Shown here: positions 2,552 to 56,949 of the stretch, one piece after another
Layout of the letters: the number at the start of each line of letters is the position of its first letter
Numbering within the stretch: the stretch's first letter is position 1
Source: a virus
Taxonomy: Duplodnaviria > Caudoviricetes
DNA length: 56,949 bases
IMG/VR virus record: IMGVR_UViG_3300037440_000905
Location: 1-56,949 of that record
Strand: one strand, 5' to 3'
Translations under genes and position numbers: made by a program
Notes under the pieces: generated by a model
The model's database searches: none
What the model saw: only the letters and a program-made list of their open reading frames with translations
What the model was told of the DNA's origin: nothing

Positions 2552-4378
2552 ATGGCCAATGGTTCCAGTGATTTAACGATTGTTGATGGAAGCCTAGACT
2601 TTAGCATGGGCGTCGATTCGATCCGCACGACGACCCTTCAATCGGAGTCCAACCCAGGCGGACTTCCACGCAACCAACTGGCCTGGCTCTACAACGCCAC
2701 GGTCAGGGACGGTGGTATCAGGCCGCGCGGGGGATGGCAACTCTTGGCAGCGGTGGACGATACTTCGGCTCTCTTTCAAGGAGGCTACATGTACGAGCCC
2801 ACCAACGGAAGCCCCTATCTCATCACGAGTATCGGCGGCAATATCTTCAAAGTCGATTGCGTTGCTCCATTCGCTGTCACGAATCTCTCAAGCGCGTTTG
2901 GACTGTTTAACCCTCCGGATGTCGACCAGGCGTTCTTCGTCCAAGCCGAACAGTTTCTGGTGATCCAAGCCGGCGACCTGGTTACGTTGCCACTCTTCTG
3001 GGATGGAACGACACTGCGGCGAAGCATTGGCATCACCAATACGGCCGTCGCCCCGGGAACCCCTGGGGTTAATGAAATCCCCGCCGCGACGGCCATGGAT
3101 TATTACATGGGTCGGCTTTGGTATGCCCAAGGCAGAAACTATTCCGCGGGCGACATCGTTAGAGGAGGATCTGGAACGGCGCCCTACAATTTCAAGGACG
3201 CGGTTTTGAACGTCACCGAAAACCCATTGTGTGCGGGTGGTGACGGGTTTACCGTGCCGGACAATTCCGGGAACATTCGCGCTCTAAAGCATGGAGCCAA
3301 CCTGGACACGGCTTTGGGTCAGGGGCGGCTTTTCATTTTCACTCGCAAAGCCATTTACGCCCTGTCGGTGCCTGTGACTCGAACAGATTGGATCGCCGCG
3401 GATACAGACAATCAGCCTTTGCAAACCGTGGTGCAGTTGGTCAATGGCGCCGTGAACGACCGTTCCATCACTCCGGCCAATGGAGACCTTTTCTATCAAT
3501 CACTCGAACCTGGCATCCGATCCCTGATTTCTGCCATTCGATACTTCAACTCCTGGGGCAACAAGGAAACCAGCGCCAACGAAAACCGCGTGCTGCAGTT
3601 TGTCGACCGCAGTTTGATGCGCTTTGGCAGTGGAGTTGTCTTTGATAATCGTCTTTTGCAGGCGACCCTCCCCAAGATGAGCCCGCGCGGTGCGGTCAAT
3701 CAGGCGATTCTGCCCATGGATTTTCTGCCGATCAGTTCCTTTGGATCTGAGGCGAGTCCCAATTGGGAAGGCATGTATGAAGGATTGGACTTTTTGCAGC
3801 TTTTCGTCGGAGACTTCGGCGGGTTGGAACGGTGGTTCGGATTGGTGGTTTCACGGATCGACTCCTCGATTCAACTTTGGGAATTGACCAAGCATCTTCG
3901 GAGCGATTTCAACGGGGTGGTGAGCGAAGCCAACCCGGAGGGGGAATCGCGCATCACCTGGCTGATCGAGACCCCAAGTTTCACGTGGAACAAAGAGTTC
4001 AACCTGAAAAAGCTGACCGGTGGAGAATTGTGGATCGACAAACTTTATGGGGAAGTTCTCTTCAAGATGGAATGGCGTCCGGACGGCGATCCTTGCTGGT
4101 ATTTCTGGCATGAATGGAAGGAATGCTCGGCGCGCAATTGCGACGAGGATACCCAGGCTATCTGTAGTTATCCACCTGCCGAATTCGGACCTTCCTACCG
4201 TTCCATGATGAACCTGCCCAAGCCGCCCATGCATTGCGCAAGCGTCGGAAAACGTCCGGCCAATATTGGGTATCAATTCCAGACGCGTCTCACGGTCAAA
4301 GGGTACTGCAGAATTCGAGGGATTATTTTGAAAGCTCAGATGCTTTTGCGATCGGAAGGTGCAGATCCAGTATGTTGA
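2552..4378 (+). CDS. Tail tube/head-stabilisation protein (P22 gp10 / T7 gp12-like)
   Basis: About 610 aa, beta-rich, N-terminal N..VRDGGIRPRGG motif typical of podovirus tail tube B/stabilisation proteins; first gene of the tail operon. ATG at 2552 preferred over TTG at 2516. Confidence 0.6.
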   Translation: MANGSSDLTIVDGSLDFSMGVDSIRTTTLQSESNPGGLPRNQLAWLYNATVRDGGIRPRGGWQLLAAVDDTSALFQGGYMYEPTNGSPYLITSIGGNIFKVDCVAPFAVTNLSSAFGLFNPPDVDQAFFVQAEQFLVIQAGDLVTLPLFWDGTTLRRSIGITNTAVAPGTPGVNEIPAATAMDYYMGRLWYAQGRNYSAGDIVRGGSGTAPYNFKDAVLNVTENPLCAGGDGFTVPDNSGNIRALKHGANLDTALGQGRLFIFTRKAIYALSVPVTRTDWIAADTDNQPLQTVVQLVNGAVNDRSITPANGDLFYQSLEPGIRSLISAIRYFNSWGNKETSANENRVLQFVDRSLMRFGSGVVFDNRLLQATLPKMSPRGAVNQAILPMDFLPISSFGSEASPNWEGMYEGLDFLQLFVGDFGGLERWFGLVVSRIDSSIQLWELTKHLRSDFNGVVSEANPEGESRITWLIETPSFTWNKEFNLKKLTGGELWIDKLYGEVLFKMEWRPDGDPCWYFWHEWKECSARNCDEDTQAICSYPPAEFGPSYRSMMNLPKPPMHCASVGKRPANIGYQFQTRLTVKGYCRIRGIILKAQMLLRSEGADPVC

Positions 4379-22368: not shown

Positions 22369-22473
22369 AAACAAAACTGATCGGAAAAACCTTGGCAAAT
22401 CAAATTGAGGATGCATGATCTGGACCGTGGCTTCGAAAAAGCCGAGAGCAGAACTGCAAAGAACTTAGACTTT

Positions 22474-22560: not shown

Positions 22561-22569
22561 TTCAAGCTT

Positions 22570-23250
22570 ATGAGCGATTCAAACGAAGAAAACCCACGTG
22601 TATTCAAGGGCATTTGGTTGCCGTATGAGATTGTAGAAGCGGACCTTACCTGGATGGAAAAGGCATTGTGGGGCATCGTCAGCTCTTTGGGACGCCACGA
22701 CCGGCCCTGTCACGCCTCGAACGCCTACCTTGCGGAGCACATGCAAACGACGGCAAACACCGTGGCAGGAATGCTTTCTAAACTGCGGAATTTGGGTTTC
22801 ATCGTGAACGGTTCGTTCGATGGCAGAACGCGCGAGATGCTGGCCGTGATTCCTGAAGTCCAGACAAGGCAGACTTTAGCACCTGCTAAAGGCAGCATTG
22901 AACCAGAGCTAAAGGCAGAATCGTCCTCTATTATACGTGATAGAAAAGTTGATAGAAAGGGTACGTGCGCGCGATTCGAGCCTCCATCTTTGGAGAACGT
23001 CCAAACCGAAGCAGCTCGGATCGGTTTGCCCGCAATCGAAGCTGAAAAATTCTTCAATTACTACGGATCCAACGGGTGGCGGGTTGGACGCAACCCAATG
23101 CGTTCCTGGCCAAGAGCAATGGCCAACTGGAAACTGAACGTTCGAAACTATGGCAACGACAATGGCAAAACCAATCCGCGACCTAATTCCTTCGGTCCTG
23201 ACCGAGATAAAAACACCTACGCCGCGCGTCGAGTTGAAAACAAGCCGTAA
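22570..23250 (+). CDS. Phage replication initiator (N-terminal winged HTH)
   Basis: FKGIWLP...CHASNAYLAEHM...LSKLRNLGFI HTH; C-terminal FFNYYGSNGWRVGRNPMRSW domain; followed by a DnaC-like loader. Confidence 0.8.
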   Translation: MSDSNEENPRVFKGIWLPYEIVEADLTWMEKALWGIVSSLGRHDRPCHASNAYLAEHMQTTANTVAGMLSKLRNLGFIVNGSFDGRTREMLAVIPEVQTRQTLAPAKGSIEPELKAESSSIIRDRKVDRKGTCARFEPPSLENVQTEAARIGLPAIEAEKFFNYYGSNGWRVGRNPMRSWPRAMANWKLNVRNYGNDNGKTNPRPNSFGPDRDKNTYAARRVENKP

Positions 23251-26877: not shown

Positions 26878-27124
26878 GTTTTACTGACCAAAAACCATTC
26901 ATCGTTACGGCGGCGCAATTCGTCAGTGAATACGCGGACGCAAACCTCTGCGTCGCGGACGCGCCGACTGGAAAGTGTAACGGGTGCGAACACTACCGGC
27001 TAGCCAGCCGCTATTCCTGCGAAGATGTCGAGGACTGGTGCTGGCTCAAAGAAGGGAAATATGCGGACGGGCGCGAGAATGAATGTCCTGCATGGGAGTC
27101 TTACATCCACTGATTATCGTGAAA

Positions 27125-27625
27125 ATGAAACGATCCAAACTGACCGACGGGCGCGCCTTCCAGGATGATCTGGTGCGGACGTGCAAGGAGTATCAAGCCA
27201 TGGGTGTCCTGCGCATGCGCAAGGTCGATCCTCCCATGCGCGTTATGGGCGGGGGCGCGGCGCGGCGGGTGATCTTCACCGAAAATCCGTTCCCGGACTT
27301 CATTGGGGCGTGGACGGAGCGAGGCGGGCGGATGGTGGCGTTCGAAGCCAAGTCGACCAAGGAACCAAGGCTTGAGGTGGGCGGCGCCGGGGGGTTGAAC
27401 GAGACGCAACTAAGGAACCTTCGCCACTGGCAACAGGCCGGCGCCGTGACGTTCGTTCTATGGGAATGGCGCGGGCATGGGGTGATTCTATTGGGAACTC
27501 AGGGGTTGTTGGGGTTGAGTCAGAAGCACATTAAGTGGGGTTTCCCTTTACGCCATGCTGTTCCACCGGGGACGGGTTTCATCCTTCATGATTTCCTGGC
27601 ACTTATGCGATATCTCTGGCCATGA
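27125..27625 (+). CDS. RecU-like Holliday junction resolvase (PD-(D/E)XK)
   Basis: GRAFQ...KVDPP...PDFIG...VAFEAKST...Q...L. Confidence 0.8.
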   Translation: MKRSKLTDGRAFQDDLVRTCKEYQAMGVLRMRKVDPPMRVMGGGAARRVIFTENPFPDFIGAWTERGGRMVAFEAKSTKEPRLEVGGAGGLNETQLRNLRHWQQAGAVTFVLWEWRGHGVILLGTQGLLGLSQKHIKWGFPLRHAVPPGTGFILHDFLALMRYLWP

Positions 27626-36803: not shown

Positions 36804-37172
36804 AAGTCTTTTAAGAGATTTTTAAGGAATAGACGCATGTAATACCATGGTTGCCTATACGGGGACAAAGCTTCGTGAAGATTGCTCAACAACGACGACA
36901 AAGCTTTTGCGCCCTCTTCGTCAGCGGTGATTCTGATGGGCCAATCGTCATTATCTCCGCAGTTATCACCAAGGAATTTTTCCAACAAATCGGCGGCTTT
37001 GGCGATTTCCAACAGATCTTTCACCTTTTCAATCGGAATGCCTGGTGTTGCAATCTGCTGTGAGGAACTAATCGAGTCTTTATGGATTTGTGATTCAGGC
37101 TTCATGCGTCTCTTGATATTGCTTCCATAAATGAAGTTGCATTGCAATGGTTTCTTTGCGCAGAATCCGGGC

Positions 37173-37847
37173 ATGGCAAGACTTAAAAGCCGGGAGCACC
37201 AAATCCCGGGAGGATTCAAGTTCCGGCAGGAGGAACTGAAATGGGACTCGCTCGTTACAGTGGGGCTGCACCCGTCGTTTCGGCGGCTGGTGGACGCGGT
37301 GATGGCAATGAGGCGCGCGAACCAGTGGATGGGCCAGCAGAAAGGCTGGAGAACGAGCCGGTTCGACGTGGAAACGGAGGTTGAGCAGTACAACGTGAAG
37401 ATCTGCCAGGATCATAATTGGAACCAGTATTTGATCGATGGGGATCCGGTCCCAAAAACGCAAGCCCACCCGCACGGGCTCGCGCGTGTTGCGGTGGGCG
37501 TTGAAACTTCGGCGGACTGGCTCGGGGCAGGAGGCAAACCGGTGGAGAAGGAGAAGGCGATAGGGCGAGGAGCGGTGTGTGTGGTGTGTCCCAAGAATGC
37601 GAAGGGAGATTGGACCAGGTTTTTCACGGTGCCGGTGTCCGGGATGATCCGAAGATACATTGAGGCAAAAAACGCGATGAAATTAGCGACACCACACGAT
37701 GAGCAACTTGGGATCTGCGAGGCGTGCGCGTGTCCGATGAAGGTGAAGGTGTGGACGCCCCTCTCTCACATCACCGAACACCTGAGCGCCGAGACCAAGG
37801 CGGACCTTCACCCGGACTGCTGGATTTTGAAGGAGATGAACCAATGA
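37173..37847 (+). CDS. Cys-rich hypothetical protein
   Basis: R..VCVVCP...CEACACPMKVKVW...PDCW. Confidence 0.6.
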   Translation: MARLKSREHQIPGGFKFRQEELKWDSLVTVGLHPSFRRLVDAVMAMRRANQWMGQQKGWRTSRFDVETEVEQYNVKICQDHNWNQYLIDGDPVPKTQAHPHGLARVAVGVETSADWLGAGGKPVEKEKAIGRGAVCVVCPKNAKGDWTRFFTVPVSGMIRRYIEAKNAMKLATPHDEQLGICEACACPMKVKVWTPLSHITEHLSAETKADLHPDCWILKEMNQ

Positions 37848-38440: not shown

Positions 38441-38728
38441 ATGAGCCTCACTGAAATTTCCAAAGAATCGCCAGAGCCAAGGTGCCGCAAATGCGGACGC
38501 ACGGTCGGGAGATTTGACGGCCCCATAGCACCCATCCGTCTTTTGTGGATCGATGGCGCATGGGAGTGCGCGCACAGTTGCCCAATGGACCATGAACAAC
38601 GGGTGGTCGTGGATCTTGAGGGTATTCCACTGGAAATCAAGGACGCCGCTACGCGGTTGCATCATTACTTTGCAAAACAAGGCATTAAGACGTGGGCGCT
38701 TATGAACGTGCAGTCCCGTGATATGTAA
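38441..38728 (+). CDS. Hypothetical zinc-binding protein
   Basis: CRKC...CAHSC; C-terminal module paralogous to the N-terminus of the previous gene. Confidence 0.5.
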   Translation: MSLTEISKESPEPRCRKCGRTVGRFDGPIAPIRLLWIDGAWECAHSCPMDHEQRVVVDLEGIPLEIKDAATRLHHYFAKQGIKTWALMNVQSRDM

Positions 38729-38747
38729 ATGGATCCCAACCAAAATT

Positions 38748-39566
38748 ATGAATCTTCGTGTCAGACGTGATGCCGGAATAGGAGATGCCGTTTGCGCGAC
38801 CATCGTTGCGGACAAGCTTCTGAACATGGGCCATGAGGTTCTGTTTGAAACCAACACTCAAATCGTTCCGGTTCTAAGCCATCATCCACGGCTCAAAATA
38901 ATGTCCAGATCCGCATTGATTCCCCACATCGATTTGAATGGAGCCTATGAAAATCGTCCAGATAGAAGAACGCGACACTTCCACGACATGTTCTTTGACG
39001 CGGCCAGGGAACAAGTGAGAAAATTCGGAATCGATTTGGGCTTTCCGGAATCGTTGAAACCCGAACTGGTCGTCTCTGCATCGGTTACCAAACAATACTC
39101 GCAACGATTGGAACACTTTGCCAGGCCCTGGATCTTTATCTGTCCAGGATCAAAGTTCTACAACGTGCGCAGAGTCGCCGATGCCGTATGGCGTGAAGCA
39201 GCTCCAAAATTCCCGGGAACGAAATTCTGGATTGGAATACATCCGGCGCCATTGGGAGTGCAGGATTTGATGGTGAGAAAAATTTCCGATCTGACCCCGT
39301 GGATTTCCTGCGCGCAACTGCTTGTCACAGGGGATACAGGTCCCATGCATATCGCCGGGGCATTGGGAGTCCCCATGGTCATCATCGAGCAATCCAGCGA
39401 TCCAAAACTCCACCTGCTTCCAGGCCGATGGAGAACCATCGCTCCGGACCTGGATTGCTTGAACTGCCAGAAAAACATATGCCCGATCAGCAGGTATCGG
39501 CCTCCATGTCAGTACGTCGATCCGGATAAACTCGTCGAATGCGTCAAGGAGGAGTTGGCATCATGA
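38748..39566 (+). CDS. Glycosyltransferase, GT9 (heptosyltransferase-like, GT-B)
   Basis: GIGDAV at the N-terminus; LLVTGDTGPMHIAGALGVP; C-terminal CLNC...CP...C. Confidence 0.85.
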   Translation: MNLRVRRDAGIGDAVCATIVADKLLNMGHEVLFETNTQIVPVLSHHPRLKIMSRSALIPHIDLNGAYENRPDRRTRHFHDMFFDAAREQVRKFGIDLGFPESLKPELVVSASVTKQYSQRLEHFARPWIFICPGSKFYNVRRVADAVWREAAPKFPGTKFWIGIHPAPLGVQDLMVRKISDLTPWISCAQLLVTGDTGPMHIAGALGVPMVIIEQSSDPKLHLLPGRWRTIAPDLDCLNCQKNICPISRYRPPCQYVDPDKLVECVKEELAS

Positions 39567-40429
39567 TGAAACGATGCTGGATGATTTCCGGAACGCCGCC
39601 GGTGTTCGTGCTCATGGGCCGATTCGGAGACCTTTGCCAGATGATTCCAAGCTTTCAACGGATCAAGGAGGCCGTGGGTAGACCGCCCGTGGTCATCACC
39701 AGCACCGATTACATGTCCATTTTGCAGGGCGCCTCTTACGTCGATTGCAGACCCATCGCCGGCCATTGGTATGGCGCCTTGGAGAAGGCAAAGTTTTACG
39801 CCCGGTCCATCTCCATGGAAGAACCAACCCGCTATTGGAACGAAGACCCAAAATGCGAACATTCAATCGGATGGAACAAGCAGGGGTGGGCAACGCTCCA
39901 ATGCCACGGACTCAATCACGGAGTCAACATGGCCCTGGACCCGGATTACGGTTCCTCCATGGCCAGGCGCGCTGGTTTTGACCGTAAGGAATTTATAAAC
40001 TCCACACTGGTTTTCGATCGCAGAAATCCAGTTCGTGAAGCGCAGTTTTCCTCCACCATAATCAATCCCCATCGGCCGACAATATTGGTCAATCTTGGCG
40101 GCATCAGCAGCCCATTCCCGCACGCCGCACCCATCATGGAGATCATCAAGTCGACCGGCGCGCACGTCGTCAATCTGCTTCGATTCCGGTGCAGCATGAT
40201 TTACGATCTCTTGGGGGCTTTCGACCGGGCCGCCGCGGTGGTCACGTGCGACACGTCAACCTTGCACCTGGCCCATGGATCACCGACTCCTTACGCCGCT
40301 TTTACCGTGGATGGATGGACGACATCGGTCCCCAAAGGCAATTGCCAGTTGGAAATAAAGTACAGCCGCGCGATGGAACAAAAAGAAAAATTCCGAGAGT
40401 GGATTCAAACTGCGGTGAACAAATCATGA
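39563..40429 (+). CDS. Second GT9-like glycosyltransferase
   Basis: GRFGDL at the N-terminus; VVTCDTSTLHLAHG. Confidence 0.7.
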   Translation: MMKRCWMISGTPPVFVLMGRFGDLCQMIPSFQRIKEAVGRPPVVITSTDYMSILQGASYVDCRPIAGHWYGALEKAKFYARSISMEEPTRYWNEDPKCEHSIGWNKQGWATLQCHGLNHGVNMALDPDYGSSMARRAGFDRKEFINSTLVFDRRNPVREAQFSSTIINPHRPTILVNLGGISSPFPHAAPIMEIIKSTGAHVVNLLRFRCSMIYDLLGAFDRAAAVVTCDTSTLHLAHGSPTPYAAFTVDGWTTSVPKGNCQLEIKYSRAMEQKEKFREWIQTAVNKS

Positions 40430-41142
40430 TTCATTTTTATTCGCATTACAAACCCGACGATCCGGATGCCGTTCGTTGCCTGGAAATGGCCGCCCGAAGC
40501 TGGGAGAAAATCGATTGGATCGAAAGACCGGTTACGACCGCTGAACTTCCAAGACTCTTCACATTGGACAAAAGATCCATCCCTTACGTGCGCGACGTGT
40601 TCGATCTTGGAATTCAGGGCGTCGAAGATCAGGAGATCTGTGTTTACACCAATATCGACATTCAGGTTCGATCCGATGCCGGTGAAATCATAGGCAAAAC
40701 CTTGAATGGAATTGATGCCTGTTACGGTTTCAGAAGGGATTTTCCACCAGGCCAAACGGCTCCCATTGCCGATCATCTTTATCGAACCGGACACAATTAC
40801 TGCGGCAGTGACATGTACGCGTTCAGGGCCGGTTGGTGGAGAAAAAACAGATCCATGATGCCCGACATGCTCATCGCCCATGAATTGTGGGACGCGGTCC
40901 TTCGCCATTTGATTGACATGACGCATCCAGGCAAAGGGACAGGAATGCTGGATCTGTGCGCCCACGAGAAAAACGGAGACAGCTGGTGGGAGAAGCCTCG
41001 AAATCGATACACCTTGCGCGGCCAAATCCACAATCTCTCGCACGGAGTCCGCTGGCTCAAAGCAAACGGGTTCAACCCAGCCCACCATGGAGTGCCCCAT
41101 CATTTTGCGCGCATGCATATCTCGGGAGGAGGAAATTCATGA
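40426..41142 (+). CDS. Putative GT-A-fold glycosyltransferase
   Basis: PYVRDV...VYTNIDI (DxD-like)...GSDMYAF...WD motif. Confidence 0.55.
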   Translation: MIHFYSHYKPDDPDAVRCLEMAARSWEKIDWIERPVTTAELPRLFTLDKRSIPYVRDVFDLGIQGVEDQEICVYTNIDIQVRSDAGEIIGKTLNGIDACYGFRRDFPPGQTAPIADHLYRTGHNYCGSDMYAFRAGWWRKNRSMMPDMLIAHELWDAVLRHLIDMTHPGKGTGMLDLCAHEKNGDSWWEKPRNRYTLRGQIHNLSHGVRWLKANGFNPAHHGVPHHFARMHISGGGNS

Positions 41143-42092
41143 GATGGCTTTTGATCAGCTCAATCCATAATCCAGGTGATTCATTCGCCAGATTTGGCGT
41201 CGAAGATCTCATCCGGGAAATCGACCAGGAGGCTCTCTTCCATGTGCTCGACAAGGAAAACCCTGACGCATGGAATCCCGTGCCATTCGATCGAGCCGTT
41301 CTTTGCGGCATGCCGGCGCTGTGGAGCCACGAGAATCAGAGCAGTACTGAAATTTGGTGGTGGGAAAAGCTTTTCGACGGTTGGATCACGGAAAACCCAA
41401 AACGTTTCATCGCGATCGGAATCGGTGAAGTGGTTGGAAAAGACGGAATTCACGATCCCAAAGCTTGGCAGGACGCCGTTGAAGTTCTGGTGTCCAAAAG
41501 TTTTGCCATCACCAGCCGCCATGAACTCACTCTCCACGACCCAAGAATCATTCAAGGCATTTGCCCGTCGTTCTTCGTGAACAGTCCAACATTCGATCCC
41601 GAGAAGAAACCACGAAGCTACTGCAATTTGATGCGCCATGGAGCCCATGATCCTTTCATGAACCCAGAGGAATCTAGGGTCTGGGAAAAATCGGTAGTCC
41701 CGCTTGCAAAAAAGTTGATCGAAGACGGATACGGATTTGTCGCCCATGATGCCGATGAAGTGCGCTTTGCGGCGGAACTGGGCTTCACCGATATCCATAT
41801 TTTCTTTGATCACCGGGAATACCTCAAACTTTACAAACAGTGCGACCGCTTCGTCGGCAACAGAATCCATGGCGCCGCCATGGCTTACCTCTTTGGAGCG
41901 CAAGTCATGTGTGTCGCCTATGATTCCAGAATCTACCTTCTTAGGGCGGTTGGAGGAAAAGCCATTTATCCCAGTCAAATGGACTGGGATCTGTACGAAT
42001 TCGACACGTTACGAAATCTGAGTATCATCCATCTCGAACGTCAGAAGACCAAATCGTTGTTGAAAGCGTTCATGGATTACAATGACCACTGA
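41139..42092 (+). CDS. Polysaccharide pyruvyltransferase-like protein
   Basis: NPGD at the N-terminus, IGIG, SR...CPS, VGNRIHGAAMAYLFG, DSR. Confidence 0.7.
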   Translation: MRWLLISSIHNPGDSFARFGVEDLIREIDQEALFHVLDKENPDAWNPVPFDRAVLCGMPALWSHENQSSTEIWWWEKLFDGWITENPKRFIAIGIGEVVGKDGIHDPKAWQDAVEVLVSKSFAITSRHELTLHDPRIIQGICPSFFVNSPTFDPEKKPRSYCNLMRHGAHDPFMNPEESRVWEKSVVPLAKKLIEDGYGFVAHDADEVRFAAELGFTDIHIFFDHREYLKLYKQCDRFVGNRIHGAAMAYLFGAQVMCVAYDSRIYLLRAVGGKAIYPSQMDWDLYEFDTLRNLSIIHLERQKTKSLLKAFMDYNDH

Positions 42093-42097
42093 ACCGA

Positions 42098-42113
42098 TGT
42101 TCCACGTGGAACA
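42098..42113. promoter_or_regulatory. parS centromere-like site (ParB-binding palindrome)
   Basis: TGTTCCACGTGGAACA matches the chromosomal parS consensus; embedded in a 28-bp perfect palindrome (42092-42119) followed by Ts, so it may also act as a terminator. Confidence 0.75.
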
Positions 42114-42174
42114 TCGGTTTTTCGCGTCAGGAAGTTCTTGAGCTTGGAGGCTTTGGGGCGTAAACCATTATCCT

Positions 42175-44496
42175 ATGGTTCAATTCAAGGATCCCGCCGA
42201 AGTCGAAATGGTCTGCCATCAGATGCGTCTTTCCGATTACCCGCGCTCTTTGAACCGTGCGTTGATCAATTCGCTTGCCAACGGCGGAACTCCCTACACC
42301 AAAGAGGAGGAAGTCGAAAACCACATCAAAATCAACGTAAACGATCTGACTCTGACACGCGAACTTCACGACGCCCGCACACAGTTCTCCTCTGCGTTCA
42401 CCAAACCCGGAACTTTTTTCACCTGCCGCACTGACATGGGTCCCGTCCATAAACGAGATGAGTGGAGCGCCATAGTCACCACTGAAATCAACCGGCTGAT
42501 GAAACGGTCCCTTGGATTCTACGAATCGTTCAGGGCCAAGTTCGCCCAAACCATCCTTCACGGTATCGGCCCTTCCATCTTCCCCGACCAGGACAAATGG
42601 TGCCCCAAACCCTTGGGCATCGAGGACATCATGATTCCAAGCCAGACGCTCCTCTCAGATCTGGCCGAGAACAACGTGCCTTACATTGCCATCTACCGGA
42701 GTTTTAAAGCCCCTGAGTTGATGCGCTTGACGCGTGGAGCGAAGGTCGATCCTGGTTGGAAGATGCCGGCCGTCAACCAAAGCCTCAAATGGATCGACGA
42801 GCAAACCCGGGTCAACTGCAGCCAAAACTGGCCGGAAATTTGGGCACCGGAGAAAAGGGAGGAACGGACCAAGAGCGACGGAGGCGTTTACGCGAGCGAC
42901 GCGGCGCCGCGCATCAATGCATGGGACTTCTACTTCTACAACGAGCAAGGCAAACATTCCGGCTGGCGCCGGCGAATGATCCTGGACGCATGGACGAGTC
43001 CTTCTCCACTGGCAAGTGGGGTGACCTCAAATCCTGATCCTGGTAAATCCTGGGCACGCGGGCAATGGCTTTACTCGAGCGATCGTGTCGTCGCCTCGCA
43101 CCTTTGCGAGGTAATCAATTTCCAGTTCGCAGACCTCTCAGCGGTGGCACCTTTCAATTATCATTCGGTACGGTCCCTGGGTTACCTGCTCTATTCGGTG
43201 TGCCATTTGCAGAATCGAGTCAACTGCCGATTCGACGAGGCGCTCTTTGAATCGTTGCTCATGTACTTCCGGGTCAAAAGTGGTGATGACATGCAAAGGG
43301 CTCTGAAAATCGAACTGGCCAGTATCGGAATCATCGAGGAAGGAATCGAATTCGTGCCGGCTGCCGAACGTTATCAACCCAACGCGCCCTTCATCAGCCT
43401 TGGATTGCAGCGCATCGCCGATACCATAAAGCGCAACGCCCAATCCTATACGGGCAACACCATCAACGCTCCCGACCGCAGGGAAATCACCGCCACGCAG
43501 TTCATGGGCGAACAGCAAACGGCCGTGCAGCTTGTCTCCGCGGGTCTCGCCCAGGCGTATCAGTATCAAATGCCCGAGTATCGGGAAATTCTACGCCGCT
43601 TTTTCAGAAGGAATTCTCGTGATGTCGATGTCCGACAATTTCGCGCCCGGGTTTTGCAGCGTGGCGTACCTGAAGAGCATCTGAACGTTGAATGCTGGGA
43701 CGTTGAAGCCGAAAGGATCCTGGGCGCCGGCAACAAAACCCTGGAACTTGCGATCGCCGAGAAGCTGCTTGCGCTCCGCCCGGCTCTGGATCCGGAACCT
43801 CAAAGGCAAGTCCTGCGCAAAGCCATCCTTGCCTACACCGACGATCCTTCCCAATCTCTTGCACTGGTTCCCGAACAGCCCAAGATCTCTGATTCGGTTC
43901 ATGACGCCCAGTTGGCCGCGGGCTCGCTCATGGGAGGATTTCCGGTGGCGATCAAGAGCGGGATCAACCATCTTGATTACGTGGAGGCCATGATGGCTAA
44001 TATTGCGCTCAAGATCTCGGAGATACGATCCCGGGACAACATGGGCACGATCGAGGAGTTGCAGGGATTGGACAACATGATGACCCACATGATGGAGCAC
44101 ATCTCCATCCTCGCCCAGGATCCGGAAGCCAAGCAAGTGGTGGCGGCATTGAATCAGAAAACCCATGAGCTGGAAAACTTGTTCAAGGGTTTCGTCCAAC
44201 GCCTGCAGGAAGCCATGAAAGCCCAGGCTCAAGAGCAGGGCAGCCAACCAGATCCTGAAACCATGGCCAAGATCCAAGCCATGATGATGCAGTCCCAAGC
44301 CAAATCCGAGAACACCCGCGAAAGCCACGCCCAGCGCACCGCCCAGCGCCAAATCGCTTTTGAACTGGAACAGGAACGCAAAGGCCAGGAGTTTGCCGCC
44401 GACCAGGAACGCGAGAACGCTCGAACGGCCGCTGAGATAACCCGTGAATCAATAAAGGAAGCCAATGAGCCCAAAGGAACGCCTGCATCTCGATAA
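42175..44496 (+). CDS. Portal protein
   Basis: 773 aa, first gene of the head module; EITATQ motif and Gln-rich coiled-coil C-terminal barrel as in P22-like portals. Confidence 0.75.
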   Translation: MVQFKDPAEVEMVCHQMRLSDYPRSLNRALINSLANGGTPYTKEEEVENHIKINVNDLTLTRELHDARTQFSSAFTKPGTFFTCRTDMGPVHKRDEWSAIVTTEINRLMKRSLGFYESFRAKFAQTILHGIGPSIFPDQDKWCPKPLGIEDIMIPSQTLLSDLAENNVPYIAIYRSFKAPELMRLTRGAKVDPGWKMPAVNQSLKWIDEQTRVNCSQNWPEIWAPEKREERTKSDGGVYASDAAPRINAWDFYFYNEQGKHSGWRRRMILDAWTSPSPLASGVTSNPDPGKSWARGQWLYSSDRVVASHLCEVINFQFADLSAVAPFNYHSVRSLGYLLYSVCHLQNRVNCRFDEALFESLLMYFRVKSGDDMQRALKIELASIGIIEEGIEFVPAAERYQPNAPFISLGLQRIADTIKRNAQSYTGNTINAPDRREITATQFMGEQQTAVQLVSAGLAQAYQYQMPEYREILRRFFRRNSRDVDVRQFRARVLQRGVPEEHLNVECWDVEAERILGAGNKTLELAIAEKLLALRPALDPEPQRQVLRKAILAYTDDPSQSLALVPEQPKISDSVHDAQLAAGSLMGGFPVAIKSGINHLDYVEAMMANIALKISEIRSRDNMGTIEELQGLDNMMTHMMEHISILAQDPEAKQVVAALNQKTHELENLFKGFVQRLQEAMKAQAQEQGSQPDPETMAKIQAMMMQSQAKSENTRESHAQRTAQRQIAFELEQERKGQEFAADQERENARTAAEITRESIKEANEPKGTPASR

Positions 44497-44728
44497 AAAC
44501 ATCGTCCAATCCGTCGTGAGATTCGTGATGCAACCCCAAATGCAGGGGACTTTGGACTTGGCTATTCTGGAAATGGCCCATCAACTCTCTAAGTCCAGGG
44601 AGCCGGCCGATTCTTTGCACTGGAAACAAGCCGGCGCTTTGGAGTTCTGCCAGATCCTTTTGAATTTGGGCAACCTGCCTGAAATTCCCAAACGCCAACC
44701 CCCAACCCAGTTAAACCACAATGCCTGA
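44465..44728 (+). CDS. Small head-module protein
   Basis: 87-aa ORF between portal and scaffold, overlapping both. Confidence 0.55.
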   Translation: MSPKERLHLDKNIVQSVVRFVMQPQMQGTLDLAILEMAHQLSKSREPADSLHWKQAGALEFCQILLNLGNLPEIPKRQPPTQLNHNA

Positions 44729-46037
44729 ACCTACGATCGCCCCAGCGCCGGTTTCCACACCGCCCCAAACTCCTTCTCCGTCCGCTCCACCGCCAAAGCC
44801 CAGCGGCAGCGCGTTGCCTCCGAGCAGTGGGGAAATCCATTTTGGACAGTTGAGCGCCGAGCCAGAGGCGCCCAAACCCACTTCGCGCAGAGCCAAAATG
44901 TTCGAGGATCTTCAGAAGGTGGCCAATAAGTCCAATCCCCAACCCAAGCCCGAACCCAAACCCAAACCTGAGCCCGCCGAACCGCCGGAGCCGCAAGCGC
45001 CCCCTCCCGAGGGGGCATCGGATGATGACATTGACGATTTGGCGGACCTGAAAACTTCCAAGGAAACGCCTGAAGAGAAGGGCAAGAAACCAAGTCCGTG
45101 GAAGATCGCCGAGGAGTACAAGAAAAAGTCTGCTCAGTTGGAGAAGGAACTGGCTGAGGCACGCGCCAATTCCACGGCCAAAAAGGAATACGAGGACTTG
45201 CAGAAGCAGTTCAAAGAAATGAGTGAGCGTACTGCCCAAATGGAGGAGGAACTGCGTTACGTCGATTACCAGACGAGCGATGAGTTCAAAAAGCAGTACA
45301 AAGAGCCATATGAAGCGGCTTGGAAGCAAGCCATGGACGAGTTGGGCCAATTGACTGTCGAGGACGCCGGAACAACGCGCTACATGAACGCGGATGATTT
45401 ACTTCAATTGGTCAGACTCCCTCTACAGAAGGCCAAGGAAGTTGCCAAGGCTCAATTTGGCGATCTTGCGGAAGATGTCATGTCCCATCGCAAGGAGATC
45501 AAACGCTTGTTTGACGTGCAATTGAAAGTGTTGGAGGAGGCAAAAACCGTGGGTGCCGAACGCCAAAAACAACTCGTCATGGAGCATCAGGCCAAGCAGA
45601 AGGAATTGAGCGATCTTGTGGCAAAAAACTGGAATGAAGCGAACGAGGCCGTCGCCCAGGACGAGCGTTACGGGAAGTATTTTAGCGAGGATCCACAGGA
45701 CAAGGAAGCCAGTGAGCGTTTGCGCAAAGGCTTTGCCCTGGTCGACAAGGTATGGGCACAAAATCCCATGGACCCAAAGCATTCCCCCGAAGAGCGCGCG
45801 AGTATTGTCAGAAGTCACGCGCTTTTGCGCAATCGGGCCGCGGCTTTCGGACGGTTGGTTGTAACCAATCAAACCTTGGAAAAGCGCGTCGCGCAGTTGA
45901 CCGAGGAATTGGAAGCCTTTAAGGCAAGTGAACCAACGCGCACCGGCAGCGAATCCACTTCCGGACAGCCTCAAGGCAGGGTGCCATGGAGGCAAAGGAT
46001 GGAAGCCGACTTGGCGAAACTTGCCAGTGCCCGGTAG
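44721..46037 (+). CDS. Capsid scaffolding protein
   Basis: Pro-rich N-terminus and Glu/Lys coiled coils, immediately upstream of the capsid gene. Confidence 0.7.
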   Translation: MPEPTIAPAPVSTPPQTPSPSAPPPKPSGSALPPSSGEIHFGQLSAEPEAPKPTSRRAKMFEDLQKVANKSNPQPKPEPKPKPEPAEPPEPQAPPPEGASDDDIDDLADLKTSKETPEEKGKKPSPWKIAEEYKKKSAQLEKELAEARANSTAKKEYEDLQKQFKEMSERTAQMEEELRYVDYQTSDEFKKQYKEPYEAAWKQAMDELGQLTVEDAGTTRYMNADDLLQLVRLPLQKAKEVAKAQFGDLAEDVMSHRKEIKRLFDVQLKVLEEAKTVGAERQKQLVMEHQAKQKELSDLVAKNWNEANEAVAQDERYGKYFSEDPQDKEASERLRKGFALVDKVWAQNPMDPKHSPEERASIVRSHALLRNRAAAFGRLVVTNQTLEKRVAQLTEELEAFKASEPTRTGSESTSGQPQGRVPWRQRMEADLAKLASAR

Positions 46038-48400: not shown

Positions 48401-49872
48401 AAAACTCCAAATTGCTACTGACCGCGGCCTTCTGTTTCGTCGCAACGTTCCTGATCGCCCAACCCATCCAAAAGAGCGGATACACACTCACCCCAGCCGG
48501 CCAGACCATCAACGCGGCAGGCGGAAGCATAACCAATCTGAATGTTCTCAGAATCACCGGAACCGCCGGCAATGTGGCTCTGACCAATGCCAACAGCACG
48601 AACTGGATCACCGACGTTTTGAACATCGGAACCCCGGACGGCGCCGACATGATTCCGATCGTCGACGTATCCACTGGTTCACGGAAGTACGCATTGGCCA
48701 CTGAGTTCTTAGCCGGGGCCGGTGACGTCACGACCGCTCAGTTAAACAATGCATCGAACGTTCTGCGAACTGACATTACCAACCTGCAGGGTGCTACCAA
48801 CGGTCAAAATTCGAGGCTTAATGGGCACGACACGGACATTGCCAATTTGCAGGGAGCCACCAACGGGCTCGTCGCGGACATTCAATCGACGTCCAACAAG
48901 GTGGTTGTGGCGGCCGGAACCGGCGGAATTACCGTCACATCGAGTGGCGCAGGTGGAGTTCAGACATTCACCGTGAATGACGATGACGCCGGAGGTTCAA
49001 CGAACAACGTCGCCACGGGAGTGCTTTTTAATACGACTTCAAATCTTCTGACTTTACTTGGCGGCCTGGTCATCCCTCCACGCCCGGGAACGGCCACCAT
49101 CGATGTCACCACGAATTTGACATTTTATTTCACCGTTGGATCGGATACCAACATCACGATTGCCGGAGCTTCGTCCAATGTCCCGCCGGTCGAGTTGGTT
49201 TTTACGCAGGATTCAGTGGGAGCACATACGATCACAATCGGAGGTGTCGGAGAGATTCATGCGGCGGACACAAACGCTCTCGGTGAAACGATGCTTTCAG
49301 TTTATGGGTGGGCCGGCCGGACCAATGCAGTTCCGATTTCAACGCCCGCCGTCCTCCTTACGAGCTACCTCGCCAAGGGCGGCGTCCCGGCTTCGAGCAC
49401 CACCAACTTCGGCGTCATCAACCTGGCTGAGGGGGAGGTTCTCATGGGGACCAATCACGTCAATCATCCTTTCGGGGTGGCGGCGGTGAACATTCCTGCG
49501 GGTGGCGGATCCGCCGGTCCAACAACCAACGCGCCGCCCTACACGGTTCCAATTATCGGCACGAATTTCATCCTGGATTGGCTGGCTCTTGGCGCGACCA
49601 ATGACGTTATCTTGACACTCTCTGCGCATTCCGGACTCCTCAACACTAACATTATTCCAGGCAAGTTCATCCGCATGGCAATCGAGCAGCCAAACGAGGG
49701 CTTCACCTACCTTGTACCGAACACGAATTACTTCGGACCAAACTTCAGGCCGACATCGGTCCAAACCGGGATTACGCAAAGCACGAATGGAAATTATGTG
49801 GATTTCATTGCTCTTTATGGGTTCCGAACCAACGCCGTTCTGAGCGGCCAAAACTGGGGAAGTGAGCCATGA
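48397..49872 (+). CDS. Fibre-like protein with a Sec-type signal peptide
   Basis: MKNSKLLLTAAFCFVATFLIA|Q; repeated DIxNLQGATNG coiled coil; LVFTQDSVGAHTIT fibre-type motif; Thr/Asn-rich. Confidence 0.6.
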   Translation: MKNSKLLLTAAFCFVATFLIAQPIQKSGYTLTPAGQTINAAGGSITNLNVLRITGTAGNVALTNANSTNWITDVLNIGTPDGADMIPIVDVSTGSRKYALATEFLAGAGDVTTAQLNNASNVLRTDITNLQGATNGQNSRLNGHDTDIANLQGATNGLVADIQSTSNKVVVAAGTGGITVTSSGAGGVQTFTVNDDDAGGSTNNVATGVLFNTTSNLLTLLGGLVIPPRPGTATIDVTTNLTFYFTVGSDTNITIAGASSNVPPVELVFTQDSVGAHTITIGGVGEIHAADTNALGETMLSVYGWAGRTNAVPISTPAVLLTSYLAKGGVPASSTTNFGVINLAEGEVLMGTNHVNHPFGVAAVNIPAGGGSAGPTTNAPPYTVPIIGTNFILDWLALGATNDVILTLSAHSGLLNTNIIPGKFIRMAIEQPNEGFTYLVPNTNYFGPNFRPTSVQTGITQSTNGNYVDFIALYGFRTNAVLSGQNWGSEP

Positions 49873-50069: not shown

Positions 50070-53000
50070 AGACTCTAATTTTCCTATCCGAATGCGTTGG
50101 ATTGTCAATTCTTGCACTTGCATCATTACCAATCCTTCCCGTCTTGTGTCTTCTGGTTTTGTTGTTTTCATCGCGCAGATCGGAAGCCGTCATGACCTTC
50201 CGAGGCATCGGCCAGACCAATACAACGGCCAACGTTGACAGTTACACTCTGGCTACAAGCAACGCCCCAATTGCAAACGCACTTTGCATTGTGGCTGTTA
50301 TCAGTAGCAAAGCTTCTGCTCCTAATACACCTACATTGGCGGGCTACGGAATGACGTGGTATATGATCGCTGAAACAAATTTTAACACTCTTGGTTCTCC
50401 AAAATCCAAACTCACGTTGTTTCGATCCATGACCAATGACAATCCAACGTCGGACGCTCTGGTTGCTTCCTTTGGAGCCAATCAGACAGGCTGCAGCATG
50501 CGAGCCGTGCAATTTTCTGGTGTGGATACATCTGGAACTTTAGGTAGCAATGCCATTGTTCAATTCGCTGTGAACGGTGCAGATGCGACCGCTAATGCGA
50601 ATGTGACTCTTGCAGCTTTGGGTGGCGGTGGATTCAATTCTGTCATCGCATTTTTGGGGAAGGATACCGTGGCGTTTTCAGGCACACCTGAAGACGGTTG
50701 GACCGAAGACTGGGACGCAGGTGCCAATCCTCCATCGAACGCTGGATACTGCATGTATAATTTTTTCACGACTGATAACACAGTCATCGTCACTAACACT
50801 GCCGCTGACTGGGCAGCGATGGCGGTTGAGATCAAGGGTGATCCAAATTCTGATGCATCTGGAACCAACGTGATCGGAGCATGGATTGATAGTGATGGAT
50901 GGACTTTGAAAGTTGTTATCGGCGGTGACACTACAACATCGATTGGAACCAATCTTCAATATTATCCAGGATTTTTAACCAGCGCACCAACGAACTGGAA
51001 TGCTTTGACCTCGACTCAAACTTGCGCTTTGACGGTTACGAGTTCGGGTTGGAAAGATGGAAGTCAAAGAACAATTGAGCGAACAATTTACCCGACAAAA
51101 ATCCGCAGATGGCCGTGGCCATTAGGGAATACCAATCGTATTCATATCACTGAAGCCACCGGAACAAACGTCATAGTTGATATTGCCCTGAATGATTATA
51201 TTTATGCAGGTGAGACTATTTCAATGACTGCGATTGCGGGATGGATTGCGAACACAAATACTTTGATCGATGTCGCAGCAGTTACTAGTTTGACGGTAAC
51301 TAATGACTCAGTAACGACGTTCGCTGATTCCTCTGAACCAACGATGAATTGGGCTCATCCTGGACAGCAACGATGGACCAATTCAACGGAATACGTCTAC
51401 TTAAAGGGCGGCCATTGGAGCGGAATCGACCGAGTTAAAGTTTATGCGATGGATGAAAGCTCGAATACTCAGGAAGTTTGGGCATCACATATTCGAGCAA
51501 AGCCTGGCTTTGGCCCAGCTAGAGGTTATTGGGTAGCGGCAATTTCAACATCGACCTTCACGAATTTTGCCCGCATCCGCTGTGATTATGTGGTGTATCC
51601 AATGATTGGGACCAATGTTTTCGACACGCGCTGGGATAGGTGGACGGGGCCGACTCCGTTGCCATCCAGCCAAACCAATTTTTTGGATCGTTTTAATTCA
51701 TTCACGAACTTTGGGATAGTTGCATTGGGAGGAGGCGCAACGCCTGTGATTACCAATGGACCACCCGAGAACGTTGATCCAGTCCATTATTTCGGATCAT
51801 TTAATGCGCTTTGGAACGCTCTTGCTGCAACTAACTTTCACCGCTACGGAATTGCGGAATCGATAGGTGTCGCACTTGGAAGAAATGGTGTGACTAATTG
51901 GAGTGGTGGTTCATTGAGCGTCTCAAATACAGCTCGCTCTTGGTCGAGATTAAAAAACTACCCAGGCGACGTTCTAACTTTGACAAACCGCACTGGCAGT
52001 CAAGATATCTCTGATTGTGTGAAGTTCGAGGGAGATACTGCGAATGGTGGAGGACTAGTGCTTCAGTTTGGGACAGGTGTTGGAAGTCCAATTTCAGGAG
52101 TTGCTAGGCTGTGGCTTGACAACATCACTGTGGATTCACCGAGCACGCAGATATTTGCAACGTGTAGTCATATTAGCATGACTGACGTTACCGTCTCAAG
52201 ATGTGGTCAGTCGATTACTACCATCAGCGCACAGAACACCTCGTTCGCTATTGGTAGGGATGTTGACGTGAGCGGGGTTAACGGGAATACTTGGTTTAGG
52301 ACGGGGATTGGAATTACGCGAAGGGGTGCTGGGAACACATCGTTCAAGATTATCGATACACAAGCCAATCACGGTGCGCCTTTTAGCGCACATACAATTT
52401 TGACCGACTCGGAATTTCTTCAACTTGGCGGAAATACTATTCTTCAATTCGGGAATACTGCCGCTGTGGATCCCGCGACATATGATGTTCTTCATGGATT
52501 TTGGTCCGAAAATGTCATCATCGAGAGCACTAATAATTATGTGTCCATGTCGCTGTGGCCAATGTCGCATGTTACCAACGTTGTGATTCGTAACTGGACG
52601 ATTCAAGGGGCTCGCAACCAGATGATTTACAATTCTGATACGAATAAATTTAGGATTACTACAAGATTTTATAATAATGTTTTCCCTGTGCCGGGATGGG
52701 CTGGAGATCTTTCGCCCCAACAGAATCCTTGGTTAACCAACAGTGCAAACATTCTGTATCAGGTAGGTTGCTCCGGGAATATTTACCATTATCCAGATGG
52801 TTCACCTGCTCATAACTGGCCAGATTTTAACGGTGTATTCAACATCATTCCAAATGTTAGCGGAACTAAATTCCCAACCAATTTTGTAAGATTCCAAAAT
52901 AATCAGGGTTATCTAGGAGCCTTTACCACTGGACTTGGGGATTATCGGTTGCTGAATAACAATTACTTATTTGGAATTTCTAGAGAAGTTGGCGCATTAC

Positions 53001-56714: not shown

Positions 56715-56949
56715 AAATGTCTGACGAAACGCGGGATTTTTTGGCGAAGGGATTTCCAAACTGGTTTCAGAACCTGTTGATGAGTTTTTTGTGCTTCATT
56801 CTGACGATGCTCTATTTCGATTTCCGAGGGCTTCAGCAGACTGTTCACATCAAAGAGGTTGAATTTGTCGAGGTCAGAAGCAAAACAGAGCAGAACGCCA
56901 AGGACATTCAATACATTCAAGCTACGCAAAGATCTTTGGCCGATGGGCT
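56711..56949 (+). CDS. Junction-spanning TM + coiled-coil protein (56711-56822 joined to 1-203; 104 aa), candidate inner-membrane spanin
   Basis: MKMSDETRDFLAKGFPNWFQNLLMSFLCFILTMLYFDFRGLQQ...LEERRYQNQTGK*; ATGA overlaps with both the holin stop and the lipoprotein start. Confidence 0.6.
   Translation, partial: MKMSDETRDFLAKGFPNWFQNLLMSFLCFILTMLYFDFRGLQQTVHIKEVEFVEVRSKTEQNAKDIQYIQATQRSLADG
56823..56949 (+). repeat. Terminal direct repeat, copy 2
   Basis: Identical to bases 1-127. Confidence 0.95.

What the first reader, a model, noticed from the sequence alone, without database searches (positions are those of the whole stretch)
42092..42119. Perfect chromosomal-type parS site in a phage with no ParA, ParB or integrase
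Seen in sequence: the intergenic 28-bp perfect palindrome aaccgaTGTTCCACGTGGAACAtcggtt. Established: TGTT(T/C)CACGTG(A/G)AACA is the conserved chromosomal parS bound by the CTPase clamp ParB/Spo0J, which drives ParA segregation and loads SMC. I recognise no parA, parB or integrase in this genome. Inference: the phage recruits host ParB in cis, either to segregate as an extrachromosomal prophage, to position or condense its DNA, or to titrate ParB. ParB spreading could also silence the adjacent portal/head operon, which starts about 60 bp away.
Basis: partly seen in the sequence, partly recalled or inferred. Interest (0 to 1): 0.88.

Follow-up and report, generated by a model that had tools for sequence, protein, structure and literature searches.

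The report
Host-type parS inside phage terminator hairpin
An uncultured tailed phage with no partition or integration genes carries one perfect copy of the bacterial chromosome's centromere site, built into a terminator-like hairpin just before its portal gene, so it probably borrows the host's ParB protein, a trick already known from Bacillus phage phi29.

Summary
A 28-bp perfect palindrome at 42092-42119 has the exact parS 16-mer TGTTCCACGTGGAACA at its centre. The complete 57-kb phage genome has no ParB, ParA, tyrosine integrase or serine recombinase by six-frame HMM search.

The 16-mer is not chance:
- It recurs perfectly in 4 of 77 relatives of this phage (about 0.001 expected), at non-homologous places.
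- It is the native clustered parS in 46 of 61 genomes of one candidate host order (that of a Pedosphaera MAG).

- The 6-bp outer arms plus a T-run make the site a terminator-like RNA hairpin. It starts at the last base of the stop codon of a pyruvyl-transferase-like gene. It sits exactly at the right joint of a swapped glycan cassette, and the nearest relative (portal 84% identical) has neither hairpin nor parS there.
- The principle is in print: virulent phage phi29 carries five host-type parS sites read by host Spo0J.

This scan has also met orphan phage parS repeatedly on other DNA. Binding and purpose are untested. Verdict: a real, recently gained host-type parS doubling as a terminator, and a new member of a known kind.

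The parts
42092..42119 (.). 28-bp perfect palindrome; as RNA on the + strand, a hairpin of 13 pairs with a 4-nt loop
   Evidence: Sequence. RNA fold of 42070-42140 gives -27.6 kcal/mol, z -4.4, and 0 of 200 shuffles fold as well. It is the only perfect palindrome of 18 bp or more in the window.
42098..42113 (.). parS core TGTTCCACGTGGAACA (host-type ParB loading site, inferred)
   Evidence: Exact match. The same 16-mer is the clustered native site in 46 of 61 genomes of a candidate host order, with 0 control hits. It occurs in at least 120 viral contigs, against 3 and 13 for two control palindromes.
42118..42122 (+). Run of five T at and after the 3' arm (U-tract of a terminator-like element)
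   Evidence: Sequence. The consensus terminator scan did not list it, because only three T lie beyond the full stem.
41139..42092 (+). Pyruvyl-transferase-like gene (317 aa) whose stop codon touches the palindrome; last gene of the glycan cassette
   Evidence: Pfam PS_pyruv_trans, E 1.4e-10. The called product is 317 aa, and its nearest homologues are 34-40% identical. It is only 32% identical to the gene in the same place in relative G001.
38718..42092 (+). Variable glycan-modification cassette between a conserved gene (37131-37847) and the portal gene
   Evidence: Glyco_transf_9 in 38718-39566 and PS_pyruv_trans in the last gene. The gene before the last has no counterpart in G001. In relatives G086 and G077 the parS-like sites lie in the same variable interval.
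42128..42163 (+). Non-coding remnant of the 3' end of the ancestral upstream gene; homology to relative G001 resumes here
   Evidence: Alignment A2. Window CAGGAAGTTCTTGAG...GCGTAA aligns to the last codons and stop of G001's upstream ORF (L003 5009-5989).
42175..44496 (+). Portal protein gene (773 aa), first gene of the virion module
   Evidence: No Pfam, PHROG or PDB sequence hit. Foldseek hits of the AF2 model are all podophage portals: SU10, Pan3, N4, T7. At least 1095 homologues exist in the protein database.
3977..3992 (.). Second parS-like site AGTTTCACGTGGAACA (one mismatch, at the outermost base) inside ORF 2516-4378
   Evidence: It is kept identical in G001, but the surrounding coding DNA is 93% identical, so this conservation says nothing.

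Best explanation
The palindrome is a genuine host-type parS that this podophage lineage gained recently. It sits at the 3' joint of a swapped-in glycan-modification cassette. Its centre is the exact 16-mer that candidate host bacteria use as their chromosomal centromere. Its 6-bp arms and the following T-run make the same DNA a terminator-like RNA hairpin that closes the cassette's transcription unit just before the portal gene.

The phage has no ParB or ParA. It therefore most likely loads the host's ParB-CTP clamp onto its own DNA at this site, as phi29 does with Spo0J. Unintegrated phage DNA would then be positioned or passed on by the host partition machinery during a delayed or carrier-type infection.

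Shown: the sequence; its non-chance recurrence in viral contigs and in this phage family; the absence of phage ParA, ParB and recombinase; identity with native sites of a candidate host order; the hairpin and the cassette joint.

Inferred: ParB binding, transcription termination, and the purpose. I rate inheritance or positioning as the likeliest purpose. ParB titration and damping of late-gene transcription are less likely alternatives within the same reading.
For: Not chance across viral contigs:
The reversed palindrome gives 3 and a shuffled-half-site palindrome gives 13.

Not chance within this phage family:
- Among 77 IMG/VR relatives (3.40 Mb), 7 carry TGTTNCACGTGNAACA with at most 1 mismatch, and 4 carry the perfect CC/GG 16-mer.
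- The reversed control is found in 0 of 77. Expected numbers are about 0.54 and 0.001-0.002.
- The sites lie at non-homologous places, which points to repeated gains.

Behaves as a cis site:
- Of 115 distinct viral sites, 45 are not inside a called ORF. Only 11% of the same loci is non-ORF DNA.

Orphan status is the rule:
- ParB_N is found in 4 of the 100 parS-bearing viral records examined, out of 120 found, and in 1 of the 22 that are at least 90% complete.
- Phage_integrase is found in 0 of those 22.
- The window itself has no ParB_N, CbiA, AAA_31, Phage_integrase or Resolvase.

Host side:
- Portal relatives sit in MAGs labelled Pedosphaera, Gemmataceae and Armatimonadota. All three MAGs encode ParB_N.
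- The exact 16-mer is present, mostly as 1-5 clustered copies, in 46 of 61 genomes of the Pedosphaera MAG's order, with control 0.

Precedent:
- phi29 has five parS sites and exploits host Spo0J (PMC2731898, introduction and discussion passages).

Terminator half:
- The hairpin starts at the stop codon, and a T-run follows.
- The window has one other hairpin plus T-run, after the giant gene at 16155-16178.
- Homology to G001 resumes right after the T-run.
Against: - The nearest relative, G001 (portal 84% identical), has no hairpin and no 16-mer here. The site is therefore dispensable.
- Only 4 of 77 relatives have a perfect site, and none at this position. It is an accessory feature, not a core one.
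- There is one perfect site, against five in phi29.
- The hairpin, T-run and stop-codon position give a sufficient ordinary function on their own.
- The 6-bp palindromic extension is not typical of parS. Only 4 of 123 other viral sites extend by 3 bp or more, and none of 10 native sites read in the candidate host order extends by more than 2.
- The host is unknown. The MAG assignments rest on binned contigs of 4-32 kb.
- The order of the Gemmataceae MAG mostly lacks canonical parS (4 of 41 genomes, control 1).
- No binding, transcript or lifestyle data exist. No repressor or other lysogeny gene was recognised, but most ORFs have no family hit at all.
Confidence: 0.6

Rival explanations
1. Plain intrinsic terminator. 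The hairpin and T-run end transcription of the glycan cassette, and the match of the stem's centre to parS is coincidence.
For: - The stem-loop begins at the stop codon, has 13 pairs and a 4-nt loop, and is followed by T's.
- It sits at the 3' boundary of a swapped cassette, like a moron terminator.
- The window has another hairpin plus T-run at 16155-16178.
- parS sites elsewhere are rarely extended palindromes.
- The first stage read very many windows, so a few chance matches are expected somewhere.
Against: - A perfect palindromic hairpin matches the parS half-site by chance about once in 4^7. The same exact 16-mer nevertheless recurs in 4 of 77 relatives against about 0.001 expected.
- It is at least 9- to 40-fold over control palindromes in viral contigs.
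- The U-tract is short, and the consensus scan did not call the site.
- Terminator-like hairpins before the portal gene are not a family habit: one clear case (L146) and at most four weaker ones among 72 relatives.
Confidence: 0.12
2. Passenger parS. The site is a real ParB site by descent, carried in with DNA captured from a host chromosome or another mobile element. It gives the phage no benefit and will decay.
For: - It lies in the incoming segment of a cassette swap.
- The nearest relative does without it.
- One-mismatch versions in relatives G077 (central CACATG), G079 and G086 look like decaying or weaker copies.
Against: - Host genomes hold only 1-5 such sites in 3-9 Mb, so random capture should be very rare. 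Yet about 5% of the family and at least 120 viral contigs have it.
- No cassette, portal or neighbouring protein of the window matched the 129 cellular and viral loci held around native or 22-mer sites (tblastn).
- Native sites lack the 6-bp arms.
- Viral sites are enriched between genes.
Confidence: 0.15
3. The palindrome is read by something other than host ParB: an unrecognised phage DNA-binding protein or another host factor. Alternatively it acts as a DNA cruciform.
For: Most ORFs of this phage have no family hit, so an unknown binder cannot be excluded. The 28-bp perfect symmetry would suit a dimeric regulator.
Against: - There is a single perfect copy in the genome.
- Relatives keep only the 16-mer core, without the arms.
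- The core equals the native parS of candidate hosts.
- No ParB-like domain is present in the phage.
Confidence: 0.08

Closest known systems
Host-type parS sites of virulent Bacillus phages phi29 and Nf, read by host Spo0J (PMC2731898, introduction and discussion passages read; the primary paper it cites as ref. 21 was not read)
   Same: A tailed podophage without its own ParA, ParB or integrase carries the host chromosome's parS sequence. The host ParB-family protein is the presumed reader, and the phage genome is handled by host segregation machinery.
   Different: phi29 has five sites, and their use is tied to sporulation (prespore entrapment). Here there is one perfect site plus one one-mismatch site. 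The site is built into a terminator-like hairpin. The likely hosts are non-Bacillus soil or sediment bacteria. The feature is sporadic in the family. Binding is untested.
Chromosomal ParABS centromeres (parS clusters near the origin, bound by the ParB/Spo0J CTPase clamp)
   Same: The 16-mer is identical to native clustered sites in 46 of 61 genomes of a candidate host order. It fits the consensus TGTTTCACGTGAAACA quoted in PMC10197239 (methods passage).
   Different: It is on a 57-kb phage with no parAB, as a single site, with 6-bp palindromic arms and a T-run that the native sites read here lack.
Plasmid-prophage partition systems that encode their own ParAB (P1; extrachromosomal mycobacteriophages, PMC7157519, search listing and abstract start only)
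   Same: A centromere-like site on a phage genome that does not integrate.
   Different: Those phages encode their own ParA and ParB and use their own parS sequences. None is present here.
Rho-independent terminators at the ends of phage accessory cassettes (morons); general knowledge, recalled
   Same: A stem-loop directly after a stop codon, a T-run, and a position at the cassette boundary.
   Different: The stem is a perfect palindrome whose centre is an exact parS. The U-tract is short, and the site was not called by the consensus scan.

Membership tests
Chromosomal-type parS (ParB/Spo0J loading site) | 16-bp palindrome fitting TGTTNCACGTGNAACA | tested here: met
   Exact TGTTCCACGTGGAACA at 42098-42113.
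Chromosomal-type parS (ParB/Spo0J loading site) | Same sequence as the native sites of the host, and a host that has ParB | tested here: inconclusive
   The exact 16-mer is in 46 of 61 genomes of the Pedosphaera-MAG order, but in only 4 of 41 of the Gemmataceae-MAG order. ParB_N is present in all 3 candidate MAGs. The true host is not known.
Chromosomal-type parS (ParB/Spo0J loading site) | Specific binding and CTP-dependent loading of ParB | not testable with these tools
   No binding data. Needs EMSA or BLI, or ChIP.
Chromosomal-type parS (ParB/Spo0J loading site) | Occurrence beyond chance | tested here: met
   At least 120 viral contigs against 3 and 13 for controls. 4 perfect sites in 77 relatives against about 0.001 expected, with the reversed control in 0 of 77.
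phi29-type exploitation of host ParB | Phage lacks its own ParA/ParB and does not integrate | tested here: met
   No ParB_N, CbiA, AAA_31, Phage_integrase or Resolvase in six frames of the complete record.
phi29-type exploitation of host ParB | Several parS sites on the genome (five in phi29) | tested here: not met
   One perfect site and one one-mismatch site.
phi29-type exploitation of host ParB | Host ParB-dependent segregation of the phage genome (into the prespore in phi29) | not testable with these tools
   Uncultured phage, host unknown.
Intrinsic (rho-independent) terminator | Stable G+C-containing stem-loop directly after a co-oriented gene | tested here: met
   13 pairs with a 4-nt loop, starting at the stop codon. 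Fold energy -27.6 kcal/mol for 42070-42140, z -4.4.
Intrinsic (rho-independent) terminator | U-rich tract immediately 3' of the stem | tested here: inconclusive
   Five T at 42118-42122, of which two pair in the stem. The site is not listed by the consensus scan.
Intrinsic (rho-independent) terminator | Transcripts end there | not testable with these tools
   No transcript data are available for this window.
Plasmid-prophage ParABS (P1-like) | Own parA and parB genes next to the site | tested here: not met

The most novel reading that the evidence does not exclude
Borrowing the host centromere reader is a widespread, undescribed habit of non-integrating phages well beyond spore-formers. Hundreds of uncultured phage genomes carry orphan host-type parS, gained again and again. 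The phage's parS spelling tracks the host's. In this phage the site has been fused with a transcription terminator into one dual-purpose element at the border between accessory and virion genes, so that host ParB clamps load exactly where the late operon begins. The clamps then carry or position unintegrated phage DNA through host division.
Probability: 0.3. Interest if true: 0.65.

Novelty: new member of a known kind. Interest (0 to 1): 0.42.

Why it matters
If host ParB really loads on such sites, non-integrating phages have a cheap, 16-bp way to plug into the host's chromosome-partition machinery. That would help explain carrier states and persistence of "virulent" phages in slow-growing soil and sediment bacteria. 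The spelling of a phage's parS could also serve as a host-range clue for uncultured phages. The class-level numbers obtained here suggest the phi29 case is one example of something common:
- at least 120 viral contigs carry the site, against 3 and 13 for controls;
- ParB_N is found in 4 of 100 parS-bearing records;
- integrase is found in 0 of 22 complete genomes;
- 39% of sites lie between genes.

This particular site adds only one more instance. Its oddity is that it is embedded in a terminator-like hairpin.

Tried and rejected
- Near-identical DNA in cultured phages: megablast of 40000-46000 found no match.
- PHROG and Pfam scans gave no family for most ORFs, the portal included. A PDB sequence profile search with the portal alignment found nothing.
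- A conserved terminator before the portal gene in relatives: rejected. There is one clear case (L146) and at most four weaker ones among 72.
- Capture of the site together with a host gene: no tblastn hit of the cassette, portal or neighbour proteins in 129 loci around native or 22-mer sites. The nearest homologues of the pyruvyl-transferase-like protein are only 34-40% identical.
Since parS itself is extremely common in cellular DNA, I do not read this as an extended consensus. Of 126 sites, 18 extend by 4 or more further palindromic bases. But choosing a palindromic 22-mer enriches for such cases.
An Rfam scan of the whole window at E up to 0.1 found nothing, so I did not use it.
- Sequencing runs: one DNA holder, which may be the source sample; no RNA holder listed.
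- The second site at 3977 is kept in G001, but the flanking coding DNA is 93% identical, so this is uninformative.
- Literature: 'orphan parS' returned 0 papers. Searches on parS, phage, host ParB, hitchhiking and host ParABS gave phi29 as the only case of a phage using host-type parS without its own ParB. I did not find a survey of orphan parS in phage genomes in these searches. Livny et al. 2007 is not held and is known to me only as cited in passages. Supplements were not opened.
- Complex prediction was not used, because no protein-protein claim is made.

Full report
**What is there.** The window is a complete IMG/VR virus record of 56,949 bp (CheckV 100%). Its "direct terminal repeat" is 127 bp. 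That length is typical of an assembler overlap, so the map is circular or permuted.

At 42092-42119 lies AACCGATGTTCCACGTGGAACATCGGTT, a perfect 28-bp palindrome.
- Its first base is the last base of the TGA stop of a + strand gene. That gene is 41139-42092, 317 aa, Pfam PS_pyruv_trans.
- Three more T follow the palindrome, giving five T in a row.
- The next + strand gene starts at 42175.
- Folded as RNA, the region forms a 13-pair stem with a 4-nt loop. The energy of 42070-42140 is -27.6 kcal/mol, z -4.4, and 0 of 200 shuffles fold as well.
- It is the only perfect palindrome of 18 bp or more in the window, and one of three perfect hairpins with stems of at least 9. Another of the three, at 16155-16178, is also followed by TTTTT after the 2051-aa gene.

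**Surroundings.**
- Upstream is a glycan-modification cassette, with Glyco_transf_9 in 38718-39566 and the pyruvyl-transferase-like gene last.
- Downstream is a 773-aa protein with no Pfam, PHROG or PDB sequence hit. Its AlphaFold model is weak (pLDDT 62.9, pTM 0.33), yet it matches only podophage portals in Foldseek: SU10, Pan3, N4, T7, with probability about 1.0 and TM about 0.2. I accept "portal" with that caveat.
- Elsewhere the genome encodes UvrD-like and SNF2-like helicases, an SbcC-like ATPase, a RecU-like nuclease and a replication-initiator-like protein.
- Six-frame HMM searches found no ParB_N, CbiA, AAA_31, Phage_integrase or Resolvase. There are no tRNA genes and no Rfam hit at E up to 0.1.

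**Is the parS core chance?**
- Within the window the exact 16-mer occurs once. A one-mismatch copy, AGTTTCACGTGGAACA, lies at 3977-3992 inside a gene.
The reversed palindrome gives 3 and a shuffled-half-site palindrome gives 13.
- Of the 100 parS-bearing records I could examine (of 120), 4 encode a ParB_N domain, and 1 of the 22 that are at least 90% complete does. None of those 22 encodes a Phage_integrase domain.
- Of 115 distinct viral sites, 45 are not inside a called ORF, although only 11% of the same loci is non-ORF DNA.
- So, as a class, host-type parS on phage DNA without a phage ParB is real, common and cis-site-like.

**The phage's own family.** The portal has at least 1095 homologues, mostly about 50% identical, many on contigs of 54-59 kb. 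With a 28-sequence alignment I fetched 78 IMG/VR relatives.
- In 77 of them (3.40 Mb), TGTTNCACGTGNAACA with at most one mismatch occurs in 7: 6 of 50 and 1 of 27.
- Four of the 7 are the perfect CC/GG 16-mer (G093, G074, G092, G106). The reversed control occurs in 0 of 77.
- Expected numbers are about 0.54 for at most one mismatch, and 0.0008 (uniform) to 0.0017 (third-order Markov) for the exact 16-mer.
- The sites are at different places:
  - G086: between genes, right after the homologue of window gene 37131-37847;
  - G077: 312 nt before the portal gene, with a central mismatch;
  - G074: 2.9 kb after the portal gene;
  - G093 and G079: inside the giant gene;
  - G092 and G106: in small-ORF regions.
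- None has palindromic arms beyond 2 bp.
- Three of the family's sites (the window, G086, G077) fall in the same variable interval between the 37131-type gene and the portal gene.

**The nearest relative.** G001 (portal 84% identical) has neither the hairpin nor the 16-mer before its portal gene.
- Its upstream gene is only 32% identical to the window's, and the gene before that is unrelated.
- Its upstream ORF runs on to a TAA just before the portal ATG.
- The window keeps the last about 36 nt of that ancestral gene end as non-coding DNA at 42128-42163, immediately after the hairpin's T-run.
- The hairpin is therefore the 3' end of an incoming cassette segment, and a recent gain in the window's lineage.
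- G001 keeps the one-mismatch site of 3977, but the surrounding coding DNA is 93% identical, so that says nothing.
- Terminator-like hairpins before the portal gene are rare in the family: one clear case (L146) and at most four weaker ones among 72 relatives.

**Host side.** Portal relatives occur on contigs binned into MAGs labelled Gemmataceae, Armatimonadota and Pedosphaera. This is weak evidence for hosts.
- All three MAGs encode ParB_N.
- The Pedosphaera MAG has the exact 16-mer.
- In 61 genomes of its order, 46 have it, mostly as 1-5 copies clustered within about 1 kb, with the control in 0.
- In the Gemmataceae MAG's order only 4 of 41 genomes have any canonical parS, with the control in 1.
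- The 10 native sites I read are not extended palindromes.
- The window's site is thus spelled exactly like the centromere of one plausible host group.

**How it most likely works.** I read the element as two functions in one piece of DNA.
- As RNA it is a terminator-like hairpin closing the glycan cassette. This rests on its position at the stop codon, the stem, the T-run and the cassette joint. The short U-tract, which the consensus scan did not call, leaves the efficiency open.
- As DNA its centre is a host-type parS on which host ParB-CTP would load and spread.
- The family and IMG/VR statistics make a chance origin of the core unlikely. I put the plain-terminator-by-chance reading at about 0.12.
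- A passenger origin without benefit (about 0.15) is disfavoured by three points. parS is rare in host genomes. No captured host genes were found. Viral sites are enriched between genes.
- What ParB loading is for cannot be decided here. By analogy with phi29 I favour carriage or positioning of unintegrated phage DNA by the host partition machinery. ParB titration and damping of late transcription remain possible.

**Comparison with what is known.** The principle is in print. phi29, a virulent podophage without ParAB, has five parS sites, and the host partition protein Spo0J is involved in segregating its genome into the prespore (PMC2731898, introduction and discussion passages; the primary paper was not read).
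- My other searches turned up no survey of orphan parS on phages and no case outside spore-formers. The library lacks many subscription papers, and Livny et al. 2007 is not held.
- This scan has already reported the same class on other DNA several times (e1-5887411, e1-5868030, e1-5981061, e1-6093347, e1-5378643). One unfollowed note describes a parS inside another 28-bp palindrome (e1-6261097).
- I reached phi29 through my own search before reading those notes.

**Verdict.** This is a real, recently gained host-type parS that doubles as a terminator-like hairpin. It is a new member of the phi29 kind in a large uncultured podophage family, probably of soil or sediment bacteria outside Bacillus. 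It is moderately interesting as an instance. The class-level pattern is the more valuable lead.

Noticed in passing
window 1-127 and 56823-56949: The 'direct terminal repeat' is exactly 127 bp. That is the size of a common assembler k-mer overlap, so it shows a circular or permuted assembly rather than a proven physical terminal repeat.
   Followed up: partly
window 16155-16178: A perfect 9-bp stem with a 6-nt loop, followed by TTTTT, directly after the 2051-aa gene. This is a second terminator-like element and the only other intergenic perfect hairpin in the genome.
   Followed up: no
metagenome loci L245-L363 (e.g. L281, L265, L266, L336, L359): Among contigs holding the 22-mer CGA+parS+TCG, 18 of 126 sites extend by 4-14 further palindromic bases. 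Several have A-runs before and T-runs after, like bidirectional terminators. parS built into terminator-like hairpins therefore also occurs in metagenome contigs of unknown, probably cellular, origin.
   Followed up: partly
genomes G129 and G241-G280 (order of the Gemmataceae MAG): Only 4 of 41 genomes have any canonical TGTTNCACGTGNAACA (control 1 of 41), although G129 encodes seven ParB_N matches. This group may use a different parS spelling.
   Followed up: no
22 complete parS-bearing IMG/VR records (G004 ... G179): None of the 22 has a Phage_integrase domain. Orphan host-type parS may be a mark of non-integrating phages, but no background rate was measured.
   Followed up: partly
G106 48645-48658 and 50108-50121 (L233): Two identical 14-bp palindromes, GTTAACCGGTTAAC, lie 1.5 kb apart. 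The second is about 100 bp from that relative's perfect parS at 50218.
   Followed up: no
window 17062-18963, 27083-27625, 22405-23250: An SbcC-like ATPase (phrog_77, SMC_N/AAA_23), a RecU-like nuclease, and a replication-initiator-like protein (phrog_2880/270, HTH_36). The SbcC-like gene is probably a recombination or repair nuclease subunit, not a condensin.
   Followed up: partly
window 41968-41990: A perfect 9-bp stem with a 5-nt loop inside the pyruvyl-transferase-like gene, about 100 bp before the parS hairpin.
   Followed up: no
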